Shown piece after piece: positions 38,860 to 46,728 of a stretch of DNA of 64,000 nucleotides. Position 1 is the first letter of the stretch. The number at the start of each line of letters is the position of its first letter. The notes under the pieces are model-generated. The model did not search any database. It had not been told where the DNA came from and was given only the letters and a program-made list of their open reading frames with translations. The position numbers were made by a program, and so were the translations under genes. Origin of the DNA: the human T2T-CHM13v2.0 reference genome, Homo sapiens; NCBI RefSeq assembly GCF_009914755.1, contig NC_060935.1. One strand, given 5' to 3'.

Positions 38860-39836
38860 AACAAATTGTGCTGATAGTCATATATATATATATATATATT
38901 TTACTGTTACCCAGTCACAATATTAAAAAGTCAAATTCACTTAGGAAGGTTCTTAATGAGCTGAAAAATGATTAATTTCATTACATCTTAAATCCTTAGT
39001 ATTTGTATTTTTAATACTCTTTATGACAAATTGAGAAATACGTATATACCCTTCAGTTTCATACTAGAGCACATTGAGCCCAGCATTTCACTGAAAAAAA
39101 CTGAGAAATTTGTTGACAATGATAAAATTGAGCACACAAGCAAAAGTTAGAAAACTTGTATGCAGTACCAAAAGCTTGAAAGTTACCCAATAATTAAAGA
39201 CTTATTTTTTCAGATTGGTGGTGATATTAGCAAAAGAGATTTCTTGACATCTTATAACAAAATGTATAAACATTTGGAAGATCTGCAGAAGTCAGTGGAT
39301 TAATATTTTTCAAATGACCATAGCATGATATTATGAAAGCACACATGAATAAAATATATATTCACAGTAAAGACAAATCAATAGACTTTAACATAACAGT
39401 ACATGAAAATGTATTCTTTTATATTTCATATTGCAACTAACCTTCATAACGCTACCTCTTGACTTTTAGTGTAGTATCAAATAATTATATCAGATAGCTA
39501 TTAAATACTCTTTTTCCATCTGCATATTTATGTGAGGCTGGATTTTCTTTATACACTTCATTCATAATAGCAAATTACAACAAAATTAATGTAGAAGCAG
39601 ATGTAAGAATACAGCTATCTCCTATGAAGTTAAACATTTTAAAAATATGGAACAATGCCATTCTTGTCCCTTAGGTTTTTTTTGGAAAATAGAGTTATTT
39701 TCCATAAAATATCTTATGCTATCACAAAAAATGTAATTTATGTTAACATTTAATTAGTTGATTCTTATTTCTAATAAACATACTGTTTAGAATTATTAGT
39801 TTTATTTTTTAATATTGTAAATTTTGACAGATGTAC
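38860..39836 (+). mobile_element. Charlie1-type hAT DNA transposon fragment
   Basis: Characteristic stretches (gattggtggtgatatta, aaacatttggaagatctgca, tgtgaggctggattttctt, aatgtagaagcagatgtaagaatacagct). Confidence 0.7.
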
Positions 39837-39840
39837 ACTT

Positions 39841-39990
39841 TATTAGTCAGTGTTCTCTAAAGAAACAGAACCAACAGGATGTATGTAGATATATCAGAGA
39901 AGATTTATTATGGGAATTGACTCACTTGATTATGGAGGCCAAGAAGTCCCACTACATTTTGTTTGCATGCTGGAGAATTAAAAGAGCTGG
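39841..39990 (-). mobile_element. MLT2 LTR fragment
   Basis: tattagtcagtgttctctaaagaaacagaaccaacaggatg...ttatggaggccaagaagtccc. Confidence 0.75.
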
Positions 39991-40194
39991 ATAGTTTTTA
40001 AGATCCATCTCAACTCAAACATCCAGAGCTGTGTCTTAATATCTCCCAAGCTTCAACCTGCATATAATACTTCTCATTAATTTATCAGACAAAAGCAAGG
40101 GGTGTGTATGAGAGAAGTCCTGTGATAAATACTCTTTTCTTTGACTGTAATGAATGAGAATAATTTGGGGGTCCCCAAATGGGCCAACCTGAAT

Positions 40195-40582
40195 TGGGGT
40201 ACATTTCCACTGATGTCAGTCACAAGGATCAACTTGGAAACCCAAGCATTTCCTGATCCTTAAGATTTATTCATTTTCTTCTGCCAGATATCCCCATAAA
40301 ATAGAGTGCCCTGCTCAGTGAAAGGTTTCATTTTATGCCCTTTGGCCTGCCCTGAGAAGCCCTGGAGGTGGAAGTTAGGATGGGTGTAAGCCATACTCAC
40401 TTCTCAAGACTGTTCCATCACACACCAAGAGACAGGGTATCTTTTTGTGCTCTGTAGAAAAGTGCTGAATGCATCACTAGACACAACTCAAACTCTATTT
40501 ATTCCGATCATGTTTCCAGTTACTTTTCACCACCCTTGCATAGGGGGCCTCCAGCAAAGACATCTTGATGACCAGATTTGAT
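40195..40582 (-). pseudogene. GLYAT-like terminal coding exon
   Basis: IKMSLLEAPYARVVKSNWKHDRNK*SLSCV**CIQHF...PVSWCVMEQS*EVSMAYTHPNFHLQG...AEENE*ILRIRKCLGFQVDPCD*HQWKCTP, matching recalled GLYATL2 LVSWIVMEQSCELRMGYTVP...LGFKICPCGWHQWKCTP; acceptor AG lost. Confidence 0.9.
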
Positions 40583-40927
40583 CGACAAAGAAAACTTCCC
40601 ATGTGATAACTAGGTGACATAGAGATTAGGTTAGAACATTTGGCTTCTGGCTCATTCTGCCATATATCTTGTATATATGCTTAAAAGTTCCCTCTCATAG
40701 CTCAATTCCATGAGCCTCTATCTAAAGTCAGCTGTAGTCTCCAACTCATACCTCAAACTAGTTACTCATAGGCCACTCATAGTCATAACATTCCAAACCT
40801 GCCCATGCCCAGACTTCTTTCCTTCCTAACACGCTCCAAAGGAATCCACCCTCCTCATGCAGTTTTACCTCTTTTAAACAGAGCAAGCTATTTACAGTAA
40901 ACAGAGGTACCCAAGATCTGTTCTCAC

Positions 40928-41127
40928 CTCTCAGTTTTCCATCATTTGGGCTGGATACATCAGAATAGGTTCTAAACTTGGTTTGTGGTGGGGCGAGGGA
41001 GGGGGGATTCAATTCCTGAGTTGATTTGGTTGCCATCTAATAAGAAGTAGGTCGCTCATATATCCACCTGCGTTAACTTTAAAGTGGAAGTCCTCTTTAT
41101 CACCTGATCCCAATCCCCCTAACAACC
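40928..41127 (-). pseudogene. GLYAT-like penultimate exon
   Basis: Acceptor tctgtcag, donor ag|gtgaga; GC*GDWDQVIKRTSTLKLTQVDI*ATYFLL vs recalled GLYATL2 GCQEGLDEAIRKVATSKSVQVDYMKTILFI. Confidence 0.75.
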
Positions 41128-41139
41128 CTGACAGATAAT

Positions 41140-41345
41140 AACAATAAACGATAATGTGTACCATTTATTGACCATTACCATGTTATAGGCACTGTGAGAG
41201 AAACACTTTGTATGTGTTATCTCTTTTAGTCATCATTGTAACTCTAAGAAAGATTCTCTTATTGTCCATTCTAAGATGTATTAACTCAGACTTAAAACAG
41301 AAGAGCCAGAATCCAAAGCAAGGTCTAATTCCAAAACCTGGATGT
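41140..41345 (+). mobile_element. MIR SINE fragment
   Basis: ccatttattgacc...ggcactgtg...agagccagaatccaaagcaaggtctaattccaaa; strand tentative. Confidence 0.6.
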
Positions 41346-42322
41346 TAATCCCTGCTGGACTGAGTCTCAAAATGAGGAAAAAATGCAGGTTAGGTATTAA
41401 TTCAAGACTCTTCTCTGTCCACACCCCCCCACACACACACCTACAGCTATTTTATAAACCAAGAGTTTAATTTTAGGATATCTAGAAACGTTTAATAATA
41501 AAGTTCAGCCCAATTGTCCCAGATTACTGTAAGTGCTTGCCACCACCCACTCCAACACACAGCTATTTGCTCTTTGCCACTTGCCTTGTCTTAATACTCA
41601 AGACAAAGTTGAATATAGGTATATATAGAAAGGTGTTCAGTGAACTGAGAGGACTGGCACTAGTCAAAAATTCAAAATACTTTACTTTTCTTTGTTATGT
41701 TCCCTTTCATTTCTGAAAAAACCATCCTGTCCCTTTCTTCTGCTTTTTTTCTCAGAAATCTTTCCCTGTCTTCTTGTTATCTAAAGTGCACTCCATCATG
41801 GTCCACAGTGTCCCACACTCCAGATTTTCTCTAGCTACCCAAATCATCCTATACACTATATTGTAGGAATGCAAACTAATAACACTACACTATTATAATA
41901 AATTGATAATGCAGCTGTTTGTTTCTTACTAATAGACTTACCTGTACCCCTTCCCCCATTCCTTATGCTGTTTTCACCAGCTGCTATTTCTACAGCTTTA
42001 AATATTCTTAAAGGCGTATTTTGTTTCTTTCATTCATTTGGTTTCTATTGTTATAAAGAGACATTATTTGACACAATAAACTCAGGGACTCTATTCATTT
42101 TTACATTCTTCCTGGAATGCTTATAATCTCAATTGTTTGAGCATTTGGATATTGGATTCACCTGGCCAATGTGCAAAGCAGAGGTAGTAAGGAAATGGGC
42201 AACTGGGATAATTTCTGAGGGGCCCTAACAACATACACACTTTAAAATACATGTCATATCACTTGTTGCAGATTTATTTCAACATTAAACTCCTCCATAT
42301 AATGTCAGCCTTTATAGTCTAG

Positions 42323-42887
42323 AGCACACGCAATCCATTCACAATCCACAAAAATTTGAACAAGGGCTGAGACTGAGACAGAGGAGATTTTTTCATCCAT
42401 CTTTTCCTAGTTACCTAGGATTTAGAAGGTATATTAGGGTTTTCCAGAAAACAAATTATATAATTCACACACACACATACACACATCTATACCCATACTT
42501 TGTGTTGAGTATTAAGACAAGGAGAGAGGCAAAGAACAAATAGCTGTGTGTTGGAGGAGGTAGTGGCAAGCACTTACAGTAATCTGAAATAAGGGGCTGA
42601 ACTTTAAAAGTTTCCATATATCCTAAAATTAAACTCTTGATCCATAAAATAGCTGAAAGTGTGTGTGGGATGGGGGCAGAGAAGGATTTTGAATTAATGC
42701 CTAACCTTCCTCAGTGTGTGTGTGTTTGTATGTGTGTGTGAATTATATATTCTCTTTTCTGGAAAACCCCAACATAATTTCCAAGTTTAAGGTAACTAGG
42801 GAAAGACGGGTGACAAAAAATCTCCTCCATCTCAGTCTCAGCATTTGTTCAAATTTTTGTGGATTGTGAGTAGATTGCCATGTGCTA
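42323..42887. repeat. Degenerate ~165-bp inverted repeat (42323-42486 vs 42714-42887); spacer 42487-42713 is an inverted copy of 41373-41618
   Basis: e.g. cacaatccacaaaaatttgaacaa / ttgttcaaatttttgtggattgtg, and cagattactgtaagtgcttgccac / gtggcaagcacttacagtaatctg. Confidence 0.9.
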
Positions 42888-43544
42888 TATGGCAATCCAA
42901 TCACAATCTCTGTGTGTGTGCTTGTGTTTCTGTCTATCTCTCTCTCTCACACACACACACACACATACACACACACACACACACACAGATTATAGGAACT
43001 GGCTCACAGTATTATGGAAACTGAGAAGTTTCATAATATGCTATTTGCAAGTTGGAGGAAAAGCCAGTGGTGTAACTCCGCCCAAGTCCGAAGGCCTGAG
43101 AACCAGAGAAGCCAATGGTGTAATTCTCTGTCTGACTCCAAAGGCCTGAGAACCAGGAGTTCCAATGCCCAAGGGCAGGAGAAGAGAAATGTTCCAGCTC
43201 AAGTAGAGAGAATTCACTCTGCCTCTGCCTCTTTGATCATTTCTGTCCTAAATGGATTGAATGATACCCACCTACATCAGTGAGGATGACTCTTCTTTAT
43301 TCAGTCTACTGATTCCAAAGCTGATCTCTTCTGGAAACATGCTTATGGACACACCCAGAAATAATCTTTACCAGCTCTCTGGGCATACCTTAGCCCAGTC
43401 AAGTTGATGCATAAAGTTAACCATCACAGAAGGCTTGGTACCAGTTGATGACCCTGAGAAAATCAAGGATTTTCTGGAGTTTTTGAGATGTCCTGGTGAA
43501 TATATCATAAATGGGGTATAGTGGTCCAAGTTGTCTATCATCTC
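42415..43544 (-). pseudogene. GLYAT-like exon split by an MLT2 LTR (exon parts 43544-43429 and 42424-42415)
   Basis: Acceptor atacag|; EMIDNLDHYT (1-nt frameshift) IYDIFTRTSQKLQKILDFLRVINWYQAF, then *ILG|gtaact beyond the LTR; compare recalled GLYATL2 EMKDDQDHYTNTYHIFTK...VISWEQTLQIQG. Confidence 0.85.
42430..43428 (-). mobile_element. MLT2 (MLT2D-like, ERVL) solo LTR containing a templated insertion
   Basis: tatattagggttttccagaaa...aaagttaaccatcaca; 5-bp TSD gaagg (42425-42429 / 43429-43433). Confidence 0.88.
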
Positions 43545-44170
43545 CTGTATGGAATGGGCAAAGAGTAAGGAGATGTAATTGTTGCTTCTCTCTCACTCCT
43601 ACATCTATACATCCAAGTCTGTTCTTGTCTTTTTCAGCCACACAGCTAAGATTTCAAGCAAAATCAACATAAAGAGATTATAGAGAATGAACTTTGTCTA
43701 AGAAGACAACACTTCTACTCCCAAGTCTCAGATCCTAAAACACTACCTGTTGCATTGTAGGTGTGCAACATATATTTGTTAAATAAATTTAAAATATTTA
43801 CACTAATAATAACTGCCATTTACTAGGTGCATGTTAAGTACTTGGCAATGTACTGAGCAACTTATAGACCAAATTACATCCCAAGGAGTAAAATTCTCAT
43901 TTCACATTTGAAAAACTTGAGAAACAGAAATGACAAAAGACTATCCAAAGCCCACACAGCTTGCAAGTGTACTTGAGCCCCCACTCACTCTGACTTAAAT
44001 AACTTGTCTCAATACTCCTGTGTCCACCTAGGCTACAGGAGACATCTCCTTCTTCATCTCTGAAATGAAATTTTTTTCCACTTTTTTCACAATAATCATA
44101 CCTTCAGAGCTCTCTCTCTCTCTCTCCTTGCTTTGTTTCTTCAACTCCCAAATATTCCTGTCTCAGGCAA

Positions 44171-44575
44171 TATATTATTCCAATCTTACACCTCTACACA
44201 GAAATACCTGAGACTGGGTAATTTATAAGGAAAAGTGATTTAATTGGCTCACTATTCCACAGGCTGTACAGAAAGCATGATTCCGGCATTGACTTGGCTT
44301 CTGTTGAGGCCTCATGAAACTTAGAATCATGGTGAAAGTCAAAGGGAAAGCAAACCACTCACATGGCCAGAGCAGGAAGAAGGCAGAAAGGGGGAATGTG
44401 GCACACACTTTTAAACAACTGGATCTCATGAGGTCTCACTCACTATCATAAGAACAGCACCAATGGGGAAATCCACTCCCATGATCTGATCACCTCCCAC
44501 CAGGCTCCACCTCCAACATTGGAGATTACATTTTGACATGAGATTTAGGCAGGGACACAGATCCAAACCATATCA
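44171..44575 (-). mobile_element. MSTA/B solo LTR
   Basis: aaatacctgagactgggtaatttataagg...atccaaaccatatca; perfect TSD ggcaa. Confidence 0.9.
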
Positions 44576-45334
44576 GGCAACAACAGCAAAAGTCTTTCCT
44601 TAATTTTTTGCCCTTTTTATATCCTTTCAAAGCCAAAAAGACAAAGGTCTTGAGTGTTCTAACACACTCTCTCCCCAGTGCCCCACAATTTGGTTTCTGT
44701 ACTTTTAATTTTGCTGAAATTTAGTTTTGGGGTATTAATCACCAAAACTTTTTCTTAAGTTCATTTTGATATTTTGCCAAATGATCTGTGAAACACTTGG
44801 CCAAATTTCCCTTAGTAGCCCATTAATTTATTCTATATTTAATAATTTTTCCCCTTCTCTTTGAAAAAAAGGAAATAAATTATCACTATCATATTCCATT
44901 CTCAAGTAAGTCAGATGGTATTATCTGTGAACCTTCTGTGAAGTAAATACACAGAGACACATAGCAGGTCTCCTAAAGTGTTTGTAGAAATTGATGGGTG
45001 AGTTTTAATTGCACCAATGCAAGATTGACTCTCAGTCATTCACAAGTAAGACCAAAGAAGAAATGGCAGATACCTTCAGCAGCCATTGGAAACATCTCAA
45101 ATATCTCCCAGGCAGCAAACAGAGGTTGACAGCTTTAGGGTTCTAGGTTTGCAAGAAAATTGTTTTACAGTCCATATGAAGGGTCTAAGATACATCCATC
45201 CATCCTCAACCCTCCCTCTTCACCTACCTCACATCCAGGGACTCAGGAGTCTTGTCAAGGACTGGTGTGATTTTAGTAGAACCCTAGAGTCATGCAAAAG
45301 GTGCATTTTTTATGACAATTCGGTAGTTTTGTAC

Positions 45335-46050
45335 CTTATTTTTAAAGAAATTGTATTGAGTTTATAATTATGTGTATCTATGGTATAAAATGCAATGTTA
45401 TAATATAATATAGCATTATATATGTTATAATGGTCTTTTTGGCATTGAAAGGATATAAAATGTGGATGGATTTAATCAAGCTAGTTAACATATCAATCAC
45501 CATACATACTTATTTTTGTGGTAAAAACATTTGAAATTTACTCCCTTAGCAATTCTGAAATATACAATAAATTATTAACAATAGTTGCTAGGATGTAAAA
45601 TGGATGTCAATGACTTGTTTTTTTCTGCTGCACTGAAACTTTATCTTCTCTTACCAATATCTCCCCACTCTGCTGTCCCTACCTGCAGCCTCTGGTAGCC
45701 ACCATTCTACCCCCTACATCTAATAACTTTAACATTTCACCTGCAAGTGAGGACCTGAAGCATTTGTCTTTCTGAGCCTGGCTTATTGTACTTAACTTCA
45801 TGTCCTCCAGGTTAATCCACGTTGTCTCAAATGACAGCATTTCCTTCTTTTTAAGGCTATATGGTATTCCACGGTGTACTATATGTGTACAAAACATACC
45901 ACATTTTCTTTATACATCATCCATTGATGGGTACTTAGTTTGATTCCACATCTTTGCTATTTTGAATAATGCTGTAATGATCATGGGAGTACAGATAACT
46001 CTTTAACATACTAATTACATTTCCTTTGGGTATATAACCAGTAATGGTAT
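45335..46050 (-). mobile_element. L1MA 3' end fragment
   Basis: Reverse L1M 3' UTR/ORF2 end (ETTWINLEDMKLSTISQAQKDK in ORF 45679-45897). Confidence 0.8.
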
Positions 46051-46728
46051 TCTATATTAAATTATTACATCTGTTTATATCACCAGTCTCCCTTATGAGA
46101 TCATCAGCTGTTGGACTGTTCTGTTCATCTTTGCATCCCCAAGATCAATCATAGTATCTGGCATTAGCCAGAATTTGGGACTTATTTATTGAATGAGAAG
46201 AAATATGGATGAGTAAATTACTTAACTGAGGAGACCCTATGCTTCTGTAACCTGAGATGGTCAAGATTCCAGCACCCATCATGGTAATAAAGAAAAATAT
46301 CTTTGGCCCCTCAAATCATTAAGCAAAAGGGAAAAGTCAAGCTGGGAACTGCTTAGAGCAAACCTGCCTCCCATTCTATTCAAAGCCACCCCTCTGGTCA
46401 CTGAGATAAATGCATATCTGATTGCCTCCTTTGGAGAGACTCATCAGAAACTCAAAAGAATGCAACCATTTGTCTCATATACCTGTGACTTGGAAGTTCT
46501 CTCCCAACTTTGAGTTGTCCCACCTTTCCAGACATAATCAATGTTTATTTTACATATGTTGATTAATGTCTCATGTCTCCCTAAAATGTATAAAATTAAG
46601 CTATGCTCTGACCACTTTGGGCACATGTTGTCAGGTCCTTCTGAAGCTGTGTTACACATGTGCATCCTTGGCAAAATAAAATTTCTAAATTAACTGAGAC
46701 CTGTCTCAAATTTTCAGGGTTCACATTT

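What the first reader, a model, noticed from the sequence alone, without database searches (positions are those of the whole stretch)
40195..43544. Fossil intron-containing GLYAT-family gene, apparently a distinct lost paralog
Seen: three minus-strand exons in the right order, with most splice sites and compatible phases, translate to GLYAT/GLYATL-like sequence, including VSWCVMEQS*EVSM (Glu at the position of the GLYAT catalytic Glu) and a terminal HQWKCTP. Almost none of this appears in the ORF track. The peptides differ substantially from recalled GLYAT and GLYATL2, so this does not look like a recent copy. An old MLT2 LTR sits inside a coding exon with a clean TSD. Inference: an ancient acyl-CoA:amino acid N-acyltransferase paralog lost in the primate lineage and possibly intact in other mammals. 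Whether it is already annotated is unknown to me.
Basis: partly seen in the sequence, partly recalled or inferred. Interest (0 to 1): 0.7.

Follow-up and report, generated by a model that had tools for sequence, protein, structure and literature searches.

The report
Ancient dead GLYAT-family gene lineage
A broken, intron-bearing relative of the detoxifying enzymes GLYAT, GLYATL1 and GLYATL2 lies in their cluster on human chromosome 11 with no RefSeq entry; it is likely a separate old branch of the family that likely died around the time placental mammals diversified, not only in primates.

Summary
Minus-strand remnants of GLYAT-family exons 4 and 6 are unambiguous (nhmmer E 3e-11 and 7e-35). 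An LTR with a CCTTC target duplication splits exon 4. There are 8 stops in 212 codons and at least 6 frameshifts: a dead duplicated pseudogene with no RefSeq row. It is not a recent copy: third-position distance to GLYATL2 is 0.88, against 0.96 between GLYATL1 and GLYATL2. In trees it joins only P0196, an unnamed decayed ORF (100/98), on a branch beside the GLYATL1, GLYATL2 and marsupial clades. The LTR (0.135 substitutions per site or more), the stop count and the distance to P0196 put the death around the placental radiation (calibration recalled), so a primate-only loss is not supported. No intact ortholog was among 271 relatives seen, but that search was incomplete. New member of a known kind; modest interest.

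The parts
45233..45306 (-). Likely first coding exon (family exon 2): ATG at 45306, GT donor at 45232, 4-base deletion. Weaker than exons 4 and 6.
   Evidence: Best hit of the exon 2 DNA profile in the window, E 0.21, model 3-75; 1 of 300 shuffles against GLYATL1, but not found with GLYATL2 or GLYAT as query; 7 of 200 shuffles with a 22-protein branch profile; missed by a 91-protein family profile.
43429..43544 (-). Exon 4, 5' part: AG acceptor intact, 1-base deletion near 43514, ends in the first CCTTC copy.
   Evidence: nhmmer E 3.1e-11; Pfam N 16 bits; 22.7 bits against a best shuffle of 3.1.
42430..43428 (-). Solo LTR (MLT2-like, name recalled) inside exon 4, with a microsatellite and two inverted copies of nearby DNA in its 3' part.
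   Evidence: 5-base target duplication; 40 other genomic copies listed at 72-78% identity; own branch 0.135.
42497..42878 (+). Inverted copies inside the LTR: 42497-42707 copies 41387-41609; 42715-42878 copies 42330-42485.
   Evidence: K2P 0.14 and 0.16 between copies.
42415..42429 (-). Second CCTTC copy and last 10 bases of exon 4 (TAA stop at 42424), GT donor at 42414, phase 1.
   Evidence: the inverted copy has a Gln codon at this stop.
40928..41127 (-). Likely exon 5: AG acceptor (one extra base), TAG at 41121, further frameshifts, phase 2 GT donor at 40927.
   Evidence: Best hit of the exon 5 DNA profile in the window, E 0.11; 0 of 300 shuffles against GLYATL2 and GLYATL1, 196 of 300 against GLYAT; 0 of 500.
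40186..40582 (-). Exon 6 (catalytic half): acceptor CG; stops at 40497, 40479, 40476, 40406, 40269, 40218; 11-base deletion near 40455; 2-base insertion at 40295; Glu kept at 40403; no stop at the family's end.
   Evidence: nhmmer E 7.2e-35; Pfam C 30.1 bits; lesion places.

Best explanation
This is a dead, intron-bearing duplicate gene of the GLYAT family, likely a third placental branch beside GLYATL1 and GLYATL2 that likely arose near the marsupial-placental split and likely lost function around the placental radiation. Shown: exon remnants in order on the strand of GLYAT and GLYATL2, 8 stops, at least 6 frameshifts, a lost acceptor, no detectable exon 3, an LTR in exon 4; it cannot make the enzyme. 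Inferred: it arose by tandem duplication; when alive it was a GNAT-fold acyl-CoA:amino acid N-acyltransferase working through the Glu-His dyad; it decayed neutrally, and the LTR more likely landed in an already dead gene than killed it; later a local inverted duplication entered the LTR.
For: Exons and lesions. No second copy of exon 6 in the genome by DNA search. Matches to the GLYATL2 locus are exonic only, whereas GLYATL2 aligns to its own young duplicate at 89.5% over 4.6 kb. Third-position distance 0.88 to GLYATL2 and 0.85 to GLYATL1, against 0.06-0.43 for younger pairs. Joins P0196 at 100/98 (76 rows) and 97/98 (29 rows), outside the GLYATL2 crown (with aardvark) and the GLYATL1 crown (with bat and squirrel). 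Sister to chimpanzee GLYATL2 rejected at p 0.038, with P0196 at p 0.001; to simian GLYATL1 p 5e-5, to human GLYAT p 2e-4. Age: LTR own branch 0.135, biased low; 8 or more stops arise in at most 1.2% of runs at distance 0.07 and 2-7% at 0.10; 45-46% identity to P0196 needs a neutral distance of 0.30 or more. P0196 lacks two Trp motifs kept by 114 of 114 and 111 of 114 relatives.
Against: Without P0196 and under LG+G4, nesting beside chimpanzee GLYATL2 is not rejected (p 0.074), and sister to all GLYATL2, all GLYATL1 or a marsupial clade cannot be told apart. The window and P0196 are both long branches. The codon model's neutral share is 0.24 but zero is only 1.6 log units worse. P0196 is one unnamed partial ORF; its species and synteny are unknown, and no lesion is clearly shared with human. 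Turning distances into dates rests on recalled rates. Exons 2 and 5 are weak, and a second stretch (42406-42353) beats exon 5 at protein level, though not at DNA level (485 of 500 shuffles).
Confidence: 0.62

Rival explanations
1. A separate paralog that stayed functional through the placental radiation, was lost on the line to primates and independently elsewhere, and survives in some mammals.
For: The stem to the window and P0196 (0.57) is near the GLYATL1 and GLYATL2 stems (0.37, 0.44), so it was likely working until about that split; human and P0196 lesions differ; the LTR age fits a stem-primate date; the ortholog search was incomplete.
Against: None of 271 proteins, including afrotherian, xenarthran and laurasiatherian family members, is an intact ortholog; both tips are about three times the median tip length; P0196 is decayed.
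Confidence: 0.22
2. An early-dying duplicate of GLYATL2 (or GLYATL1) made on the placental stem, never a gene with its own function; its distance is mostly neutral decay.
For: GLYATL2 is the closest human paralog (42% against 35% and 30%); tip-to-tip neighbour of GLYATL2; sister to all GLYATL2 in one tree at 55/39; the codon model allows a wholly neutral branch up to about 0.4.
Against: Second codon positions are better kept than third (0.67 against 0.49 to GLYATL2); a long shared stem with P0196; short intron 5 (345 bases) like GLYATL1 (256), unlike GLYATL2.
Confidence: 0.12
3. A chimera of remnants from two tandem paralogs, or a recent GLYATL copy.
For: Two exon-5-like stretches at protein level.
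Against: The second stretch has no DNA similarity; no extra exon 4 or 6 in the window; a recent copy is excluded.
Confidence: 0.04

Closest known systems
GLYATL2 (human, next gene 3' in window coordinates; medium/long-chain acyl-CoA:glycine per PMC7659008, passages read)
   Same: Same strand, exon phases and domains; 42% identity over 202 codons; VMEQS and HQWKCTP motifs.
   Different: Dead; outside the placental GLYATL2 crown; no intron similarity; Ser in place of the Arg228 equivalent, Tyr in place of His263; longer intron 4 (1287 against 93 bases), shorter intron 5.
GLYATL1 (conjugates glutamine per PMC7659008, passages read)
   Same: 35% identity; EVSMAY resembles its EVGMAY, both lacking the glycine-binding Arg; short intron 5; exons 2 and 5 align to it.
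   Different: Opposite strand; not within the GLYATL1 crown; the Ser could be one neutral change from Arg or from Gly.
GLYAT (bovine structure 7PK0; PMC12509317, passages read)
   Same: Glu226 equivalent kept; same exon layout.
   Different: 30% identity; separate branch (p 2e-4).
LOC100420019 and other duplicated pseudogenes of the cluster
   Same: Intron-bearing dead duplicates in the same cluster.
   Different: Those sit within or beside a living gene's clade and carry 1-2 stops in the matched C-terminal domain; this one has 6 in exon 6 and no close living human parent.

Membership tests
GLYAT family (Gly_acyl_tr_N/C, GNAT) | PF08444 C-terminal domain | tested here: met
   30.1 bits over cut-off 27, plus 19.3 bits in a second frame; 31.6 bits.
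GLYAT family (Gly_acyl_tr_N/C, GNAT) | PF06021 N-terminal domain | tested here: inconclusive
   Pieces of 19.2 and 16.0 bits, each under the cut-off of 31.2; exon 4 is significant with purpose-built profiles.
GLYAT family (Gly_acyl_tr_N/C, GNAT) | Five coding exons with phases 0, 0, 1, 2 | tested here: inconclusive
   Four of five found in order; exon 3 absent; one junction one base off, one acceptor lost.
GLYAT family (Gly_acyl_tr_N/C, GNAT) | Catalytic Glu226 | tested here: met
   GAA at 40403, aligned; numbering through and PMC12509317.
GLYAT family (Gly_acyl_tr_N/C, GNAT) | His263 and Arg228 of bovine GLYAT | tested here: not met
   Tyr and Ser. Living human GLYATL1 also lacks both, so this does not exclude ancestry; P0196 keeps His.
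Functional acyltransferase gene | Open reading frame and splice sites | tested here: not met
   8 stops in 212 codons, frameshifts, LTR in exon 4.
GLYATL2 ortholog group | Nests within placental GLYATL2 | tested here: not met
   Outside the crown; p 0.038 and 0.001; p 0.074 in the reduced test.
GLYATL1 ortholog group | Nests within placental GLYATL1 | tested here: not met
   Outside the crown; with simian GLYATL1 p 5e-5; sister to the whole clade not rejected, p 0.33.
Duplicated (unprocessed) pseudogene | Introns kept, lies in the parent cluster, disabled | tested here: met
Unitary pseudogene (no working copy in human, working ortholog elsewhere) | Intact ortholog in another species | tested here: inconclusive
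   None among 271 proteins; search incomplete.
Primate-specific gene loss | Intact in the nearest non-primate relatives | not testable with these tools
   No other mammal genome is held; indirect dating points older.
MLT2 (HERVL) solo LTR | 5-base target duplication, TG start, many dispersed copies | tested here: met
   it ends TA, not CA.
MLT2 (HERVL) solo LTR | Match to a Dfam or Repbase subfamily | not testable with these tools
   No repeat library; MLT2B-like is a recalled resemblance.

The most novel reading that the evidence does not exclude
Placental mammals had a further N-acyltransferase, as old as GLYATL1 and GLYATL2, lacking the glycine-binding Arg and so conjugating another amino acid, and it is still active and unrecognised in some living mammal orders.
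Probability: 0.15. Interest if true: 0.55.

Novelty: new member of a known kind. Interest (0 to 1): 0.3.

Why it matters
It adds a branch to a family that governs amino-acid conjugation of acyl-CoAs and xenobiotics, and shows that early placentals likely had one more such enzyme than human annotation suggests. It has no bearing on present human function. It would matter more if a living ortholog exists, because its acceptor amino acid could then be assayed and might help explain species differences in conjugation.

Tried and rejected
Exon 3: no trace between 45230 and 43550 by DNA profile, pairwise DNA or protein profile. A stretch at 42230-42080 that I first took for exon 5 scored 10-31 against 25-60 for the accepted one. 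A stretch at 42406-42263 resembles exon 5 as peptide (0 of 200; 0 of 100) but not as DNA (485 and 470 of 500); left unexplained. First protein search with a 60-residue piece: 1 candidate, no hit. Targeted ortholog search covered only 362-2000 residues and so missed normal-length proteins: 2 hits of 1159 candidates, neither an ortholog. PDB search used a wrong frame; one search found bovine GLYAT only. The Atlas did not hold P0196 and gave only family-level clusters for P0102. Codon model gave no lower bound on the dead time. DNA matches at 45310-46079 to several loci are read as shared old repeats (recalled), not paralogy. No fold or complex prediction: nothing open for a dead gene. Ten paper searches listed no paper on this locus; the library lacks most subscription papers, and no supplements were read, where gene-loss tables could list it.

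Full report
Observation. The minus strand holds GLYAT-family coding remnants. Pfam matched 3 of 15 stop-read-through pieces, best PF08444 at 30.1 bits over a cut-off of 27. A genome-wide PF08444 search gave 12 matches of 25 candidates, 11 on chromosome 11; this locus is the weakest. I cut the exons of 11 human paralogs and pseudogenes and built DNA profiles: exon 4 matches 43544-43430 (E 3.1e-11), exon 6 matches 40564-40195 (E 7.2e-35); the reversed window gives E 3 and 3.7. The gene names of the paralogs follow the annotation table added to the finding, by position.

Anatomy. Exon 3 was not found by any of four tests. Exon 4 is split by a 999-base insert with CCTTC on both sides; its acceptor and phase 1 donor survive. 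Exon 5 is best placed at 41127-40928 (0 of 500 shuffles against both GLYATL2 and GLYATL1); it starts one base out of phase and ends in a phase 2 donor. A rival stretch at 42406-42263 scores as well as peptide but not as DNA. Exon 6 starts at 40582 behind CG instead of AG. In 212 alignable codons there are 8 stops, plus at least 6 frameshifts. It cannot encode the enzyme.

Active site. In bovine GLYAT, Glu226 and His263 form the dyad and Arg228 binds the acceptor's carboxylate; E226A and R228A abolish activity (PMC12509317, passages read). Here Glu is kept, His is Tyr and Arg is Ser. GLYATL1, which conjugates glutamine (PMC7659008, passages read), has Gly at the Arg position, so a non-glycine acceptor is possible; but the Ser codon is one change from either Arg or Gly, so this is only a lead.

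Not a recent copy. A DNA search with exon 6 finds only itself (the tool warns that this is a loose search). Matches to the GLYATL2 locus are exonic only, while GLYATL2 aligns to its young duplicate at 89.5% over 4.6 kb. Third-position distances are 0.88 to GLYATL2 and 0.85 to GLYATL1, against 0.96 between those two, 0.43 for GLYAT and LOC100420019, 0.16 and 0.06 for younger pairs.

Relatives. Two searches returned 120 of 340 and 150 of 681 hits, and a third added one. Of these 271, only P0196, an unnamed 134-residue ORF, is closer to the window than to any of eight reference paralogs. It shares 45-46% of about 110 residues and lineage-specific words, and looks decayed: two internal deletions, an early end, and loss of Trp motifs present in 114 of 114 and 111 of 114 relatives. 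The two join at 100/98 in an exon 6 tree of 76 chosen rows and 97/98 in a whole-protein tree of 29 rows, where they form one of five unresolved branches with GLYATL1, GLYATL2 and two marsupial clades (96/94). Nesting beside chimpanzee GLYATL2 is rejected there (p 0.038; 0.001 with P0196). With 7 rows left out, P0196 among them, and a simpler model, it is not (p 0.074), and the sister group is undecided. Both tips are long, so attraction cannot be wholly excluded.

Age of loss. The LTR's 5' 434 bases differ from 12 of the 13 best-scoring copies by K2P 0.27, as the copies do from each other; its own branch is 0.135 +/- 0.017, biased low by that choice. An LTR in a coding exon gives a minimum age for the death. 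Eight stops are rare below a distance of about 0.10 and typical at 0.2-0.3 (rough simulation). A codon model gives 0.24 with no lower bound. Identity to P0196 needs a total neutral distance of 0.30 or more, best 0.40-0.45. Recalled calibration, from no call: about 0.11 on the human line to the primate ancestor, 0.13 to the rodent split, 0.15-0.18 to the placental root, and 0.20-0.25 in total to a lemur. On that scale the gene was dead by the origin of primates, and a decayed copy likely exists outside primates. PMC11319637 (parts 1-2 of 3 read) dates MLT2B3 back to the human-bushbaby ancestor; PMC5753468 (passages) lists the MLT2 subfamilies; I could not assign ours. No lesion is clearly shared with P0196, so one early loss and several independent losses cannot be told apart. 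Later, two pieces of nearby DNA were copied inverted into the LTR (K2P 0.14-0.16 between copies); one copy keeps a Gln codon where exon 4 now has a stop, so that stop is younger than the LTR.

Known or new. The RefSeq table given with the finding has no row here; GENCODE could not be checked. Ten paper searches listed nothing on this locus (listings and abstract starts seen). PMC13639854 mentions only GLYATL1B (one passage); PMC10464902 gave family background (passages). No supplements were read. The intact-ortholog question stays open because searched only proteins of 362 residues or more, and a living ortholog could hide in a 50% cluster.

Verdict. A real, old duplicated pseudogene that likely marks a separate lost branch of the GLYATL1/GLYATL2 group. 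New member of a known kind; interest 0.3.

Noticed in passing
L054:1576-8370 (G000:C11:58,634,575-58,641,370, + strand): Another GLYAT-branch pseudogene beyond the 3' end of GLYAT, opposite strand, with only one stop in exon 6. Its sister is the unnamed P0139 (100/99), whose exon 6 is open. It is not among the neighbours in the annotation note and is a better candidate for a late loss.
   Followed up: partly
G000:C11:58,991,912-59,000,128 and 59,035,481-59,043,939: Two GLYATL1-like copies both have intact 302-codon frames and splice sites in this assembly.
   Followed up: partly
G000:C11:58,945,291-58,949,211 (- strand): A young GLYATL2 duplicate, broken, 89.5% identical over 4.6 kb, among the GLYATL1-like copies.
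   Followed up: partly
L045 (LOC100420019): Exon 2 lies about 2.3 kb beyond the annotated span, with its donor changed; exon 3 was not found.
   Followed up: partly
window 41387-42878: Two inverted copies of nearby DNA sit in the LTR's microsatellite in an order that a single inversion would not give, suggesting template switching.
   Followed up: partly
window 42263-42406, - strand: Peptide resembling exon 5 (MDEKISSVSVSALVQI) right behind the exon 4 donor, without DNA-level support.
   Followed up: yes
window 39835-40060, - strand: A second, 3' fragment of an MLT2-like LTR just past exon 6 (resemblance recalled; weak alignment).
   Followed up: partly
window 41136-41335 and 44170-44580: A MIR-like repeat abuts the exon 5 acceptor and an MST-like LTR lies where exon 3 would be (names recalled; one search found only the self match for the first).
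   Followed up: partly
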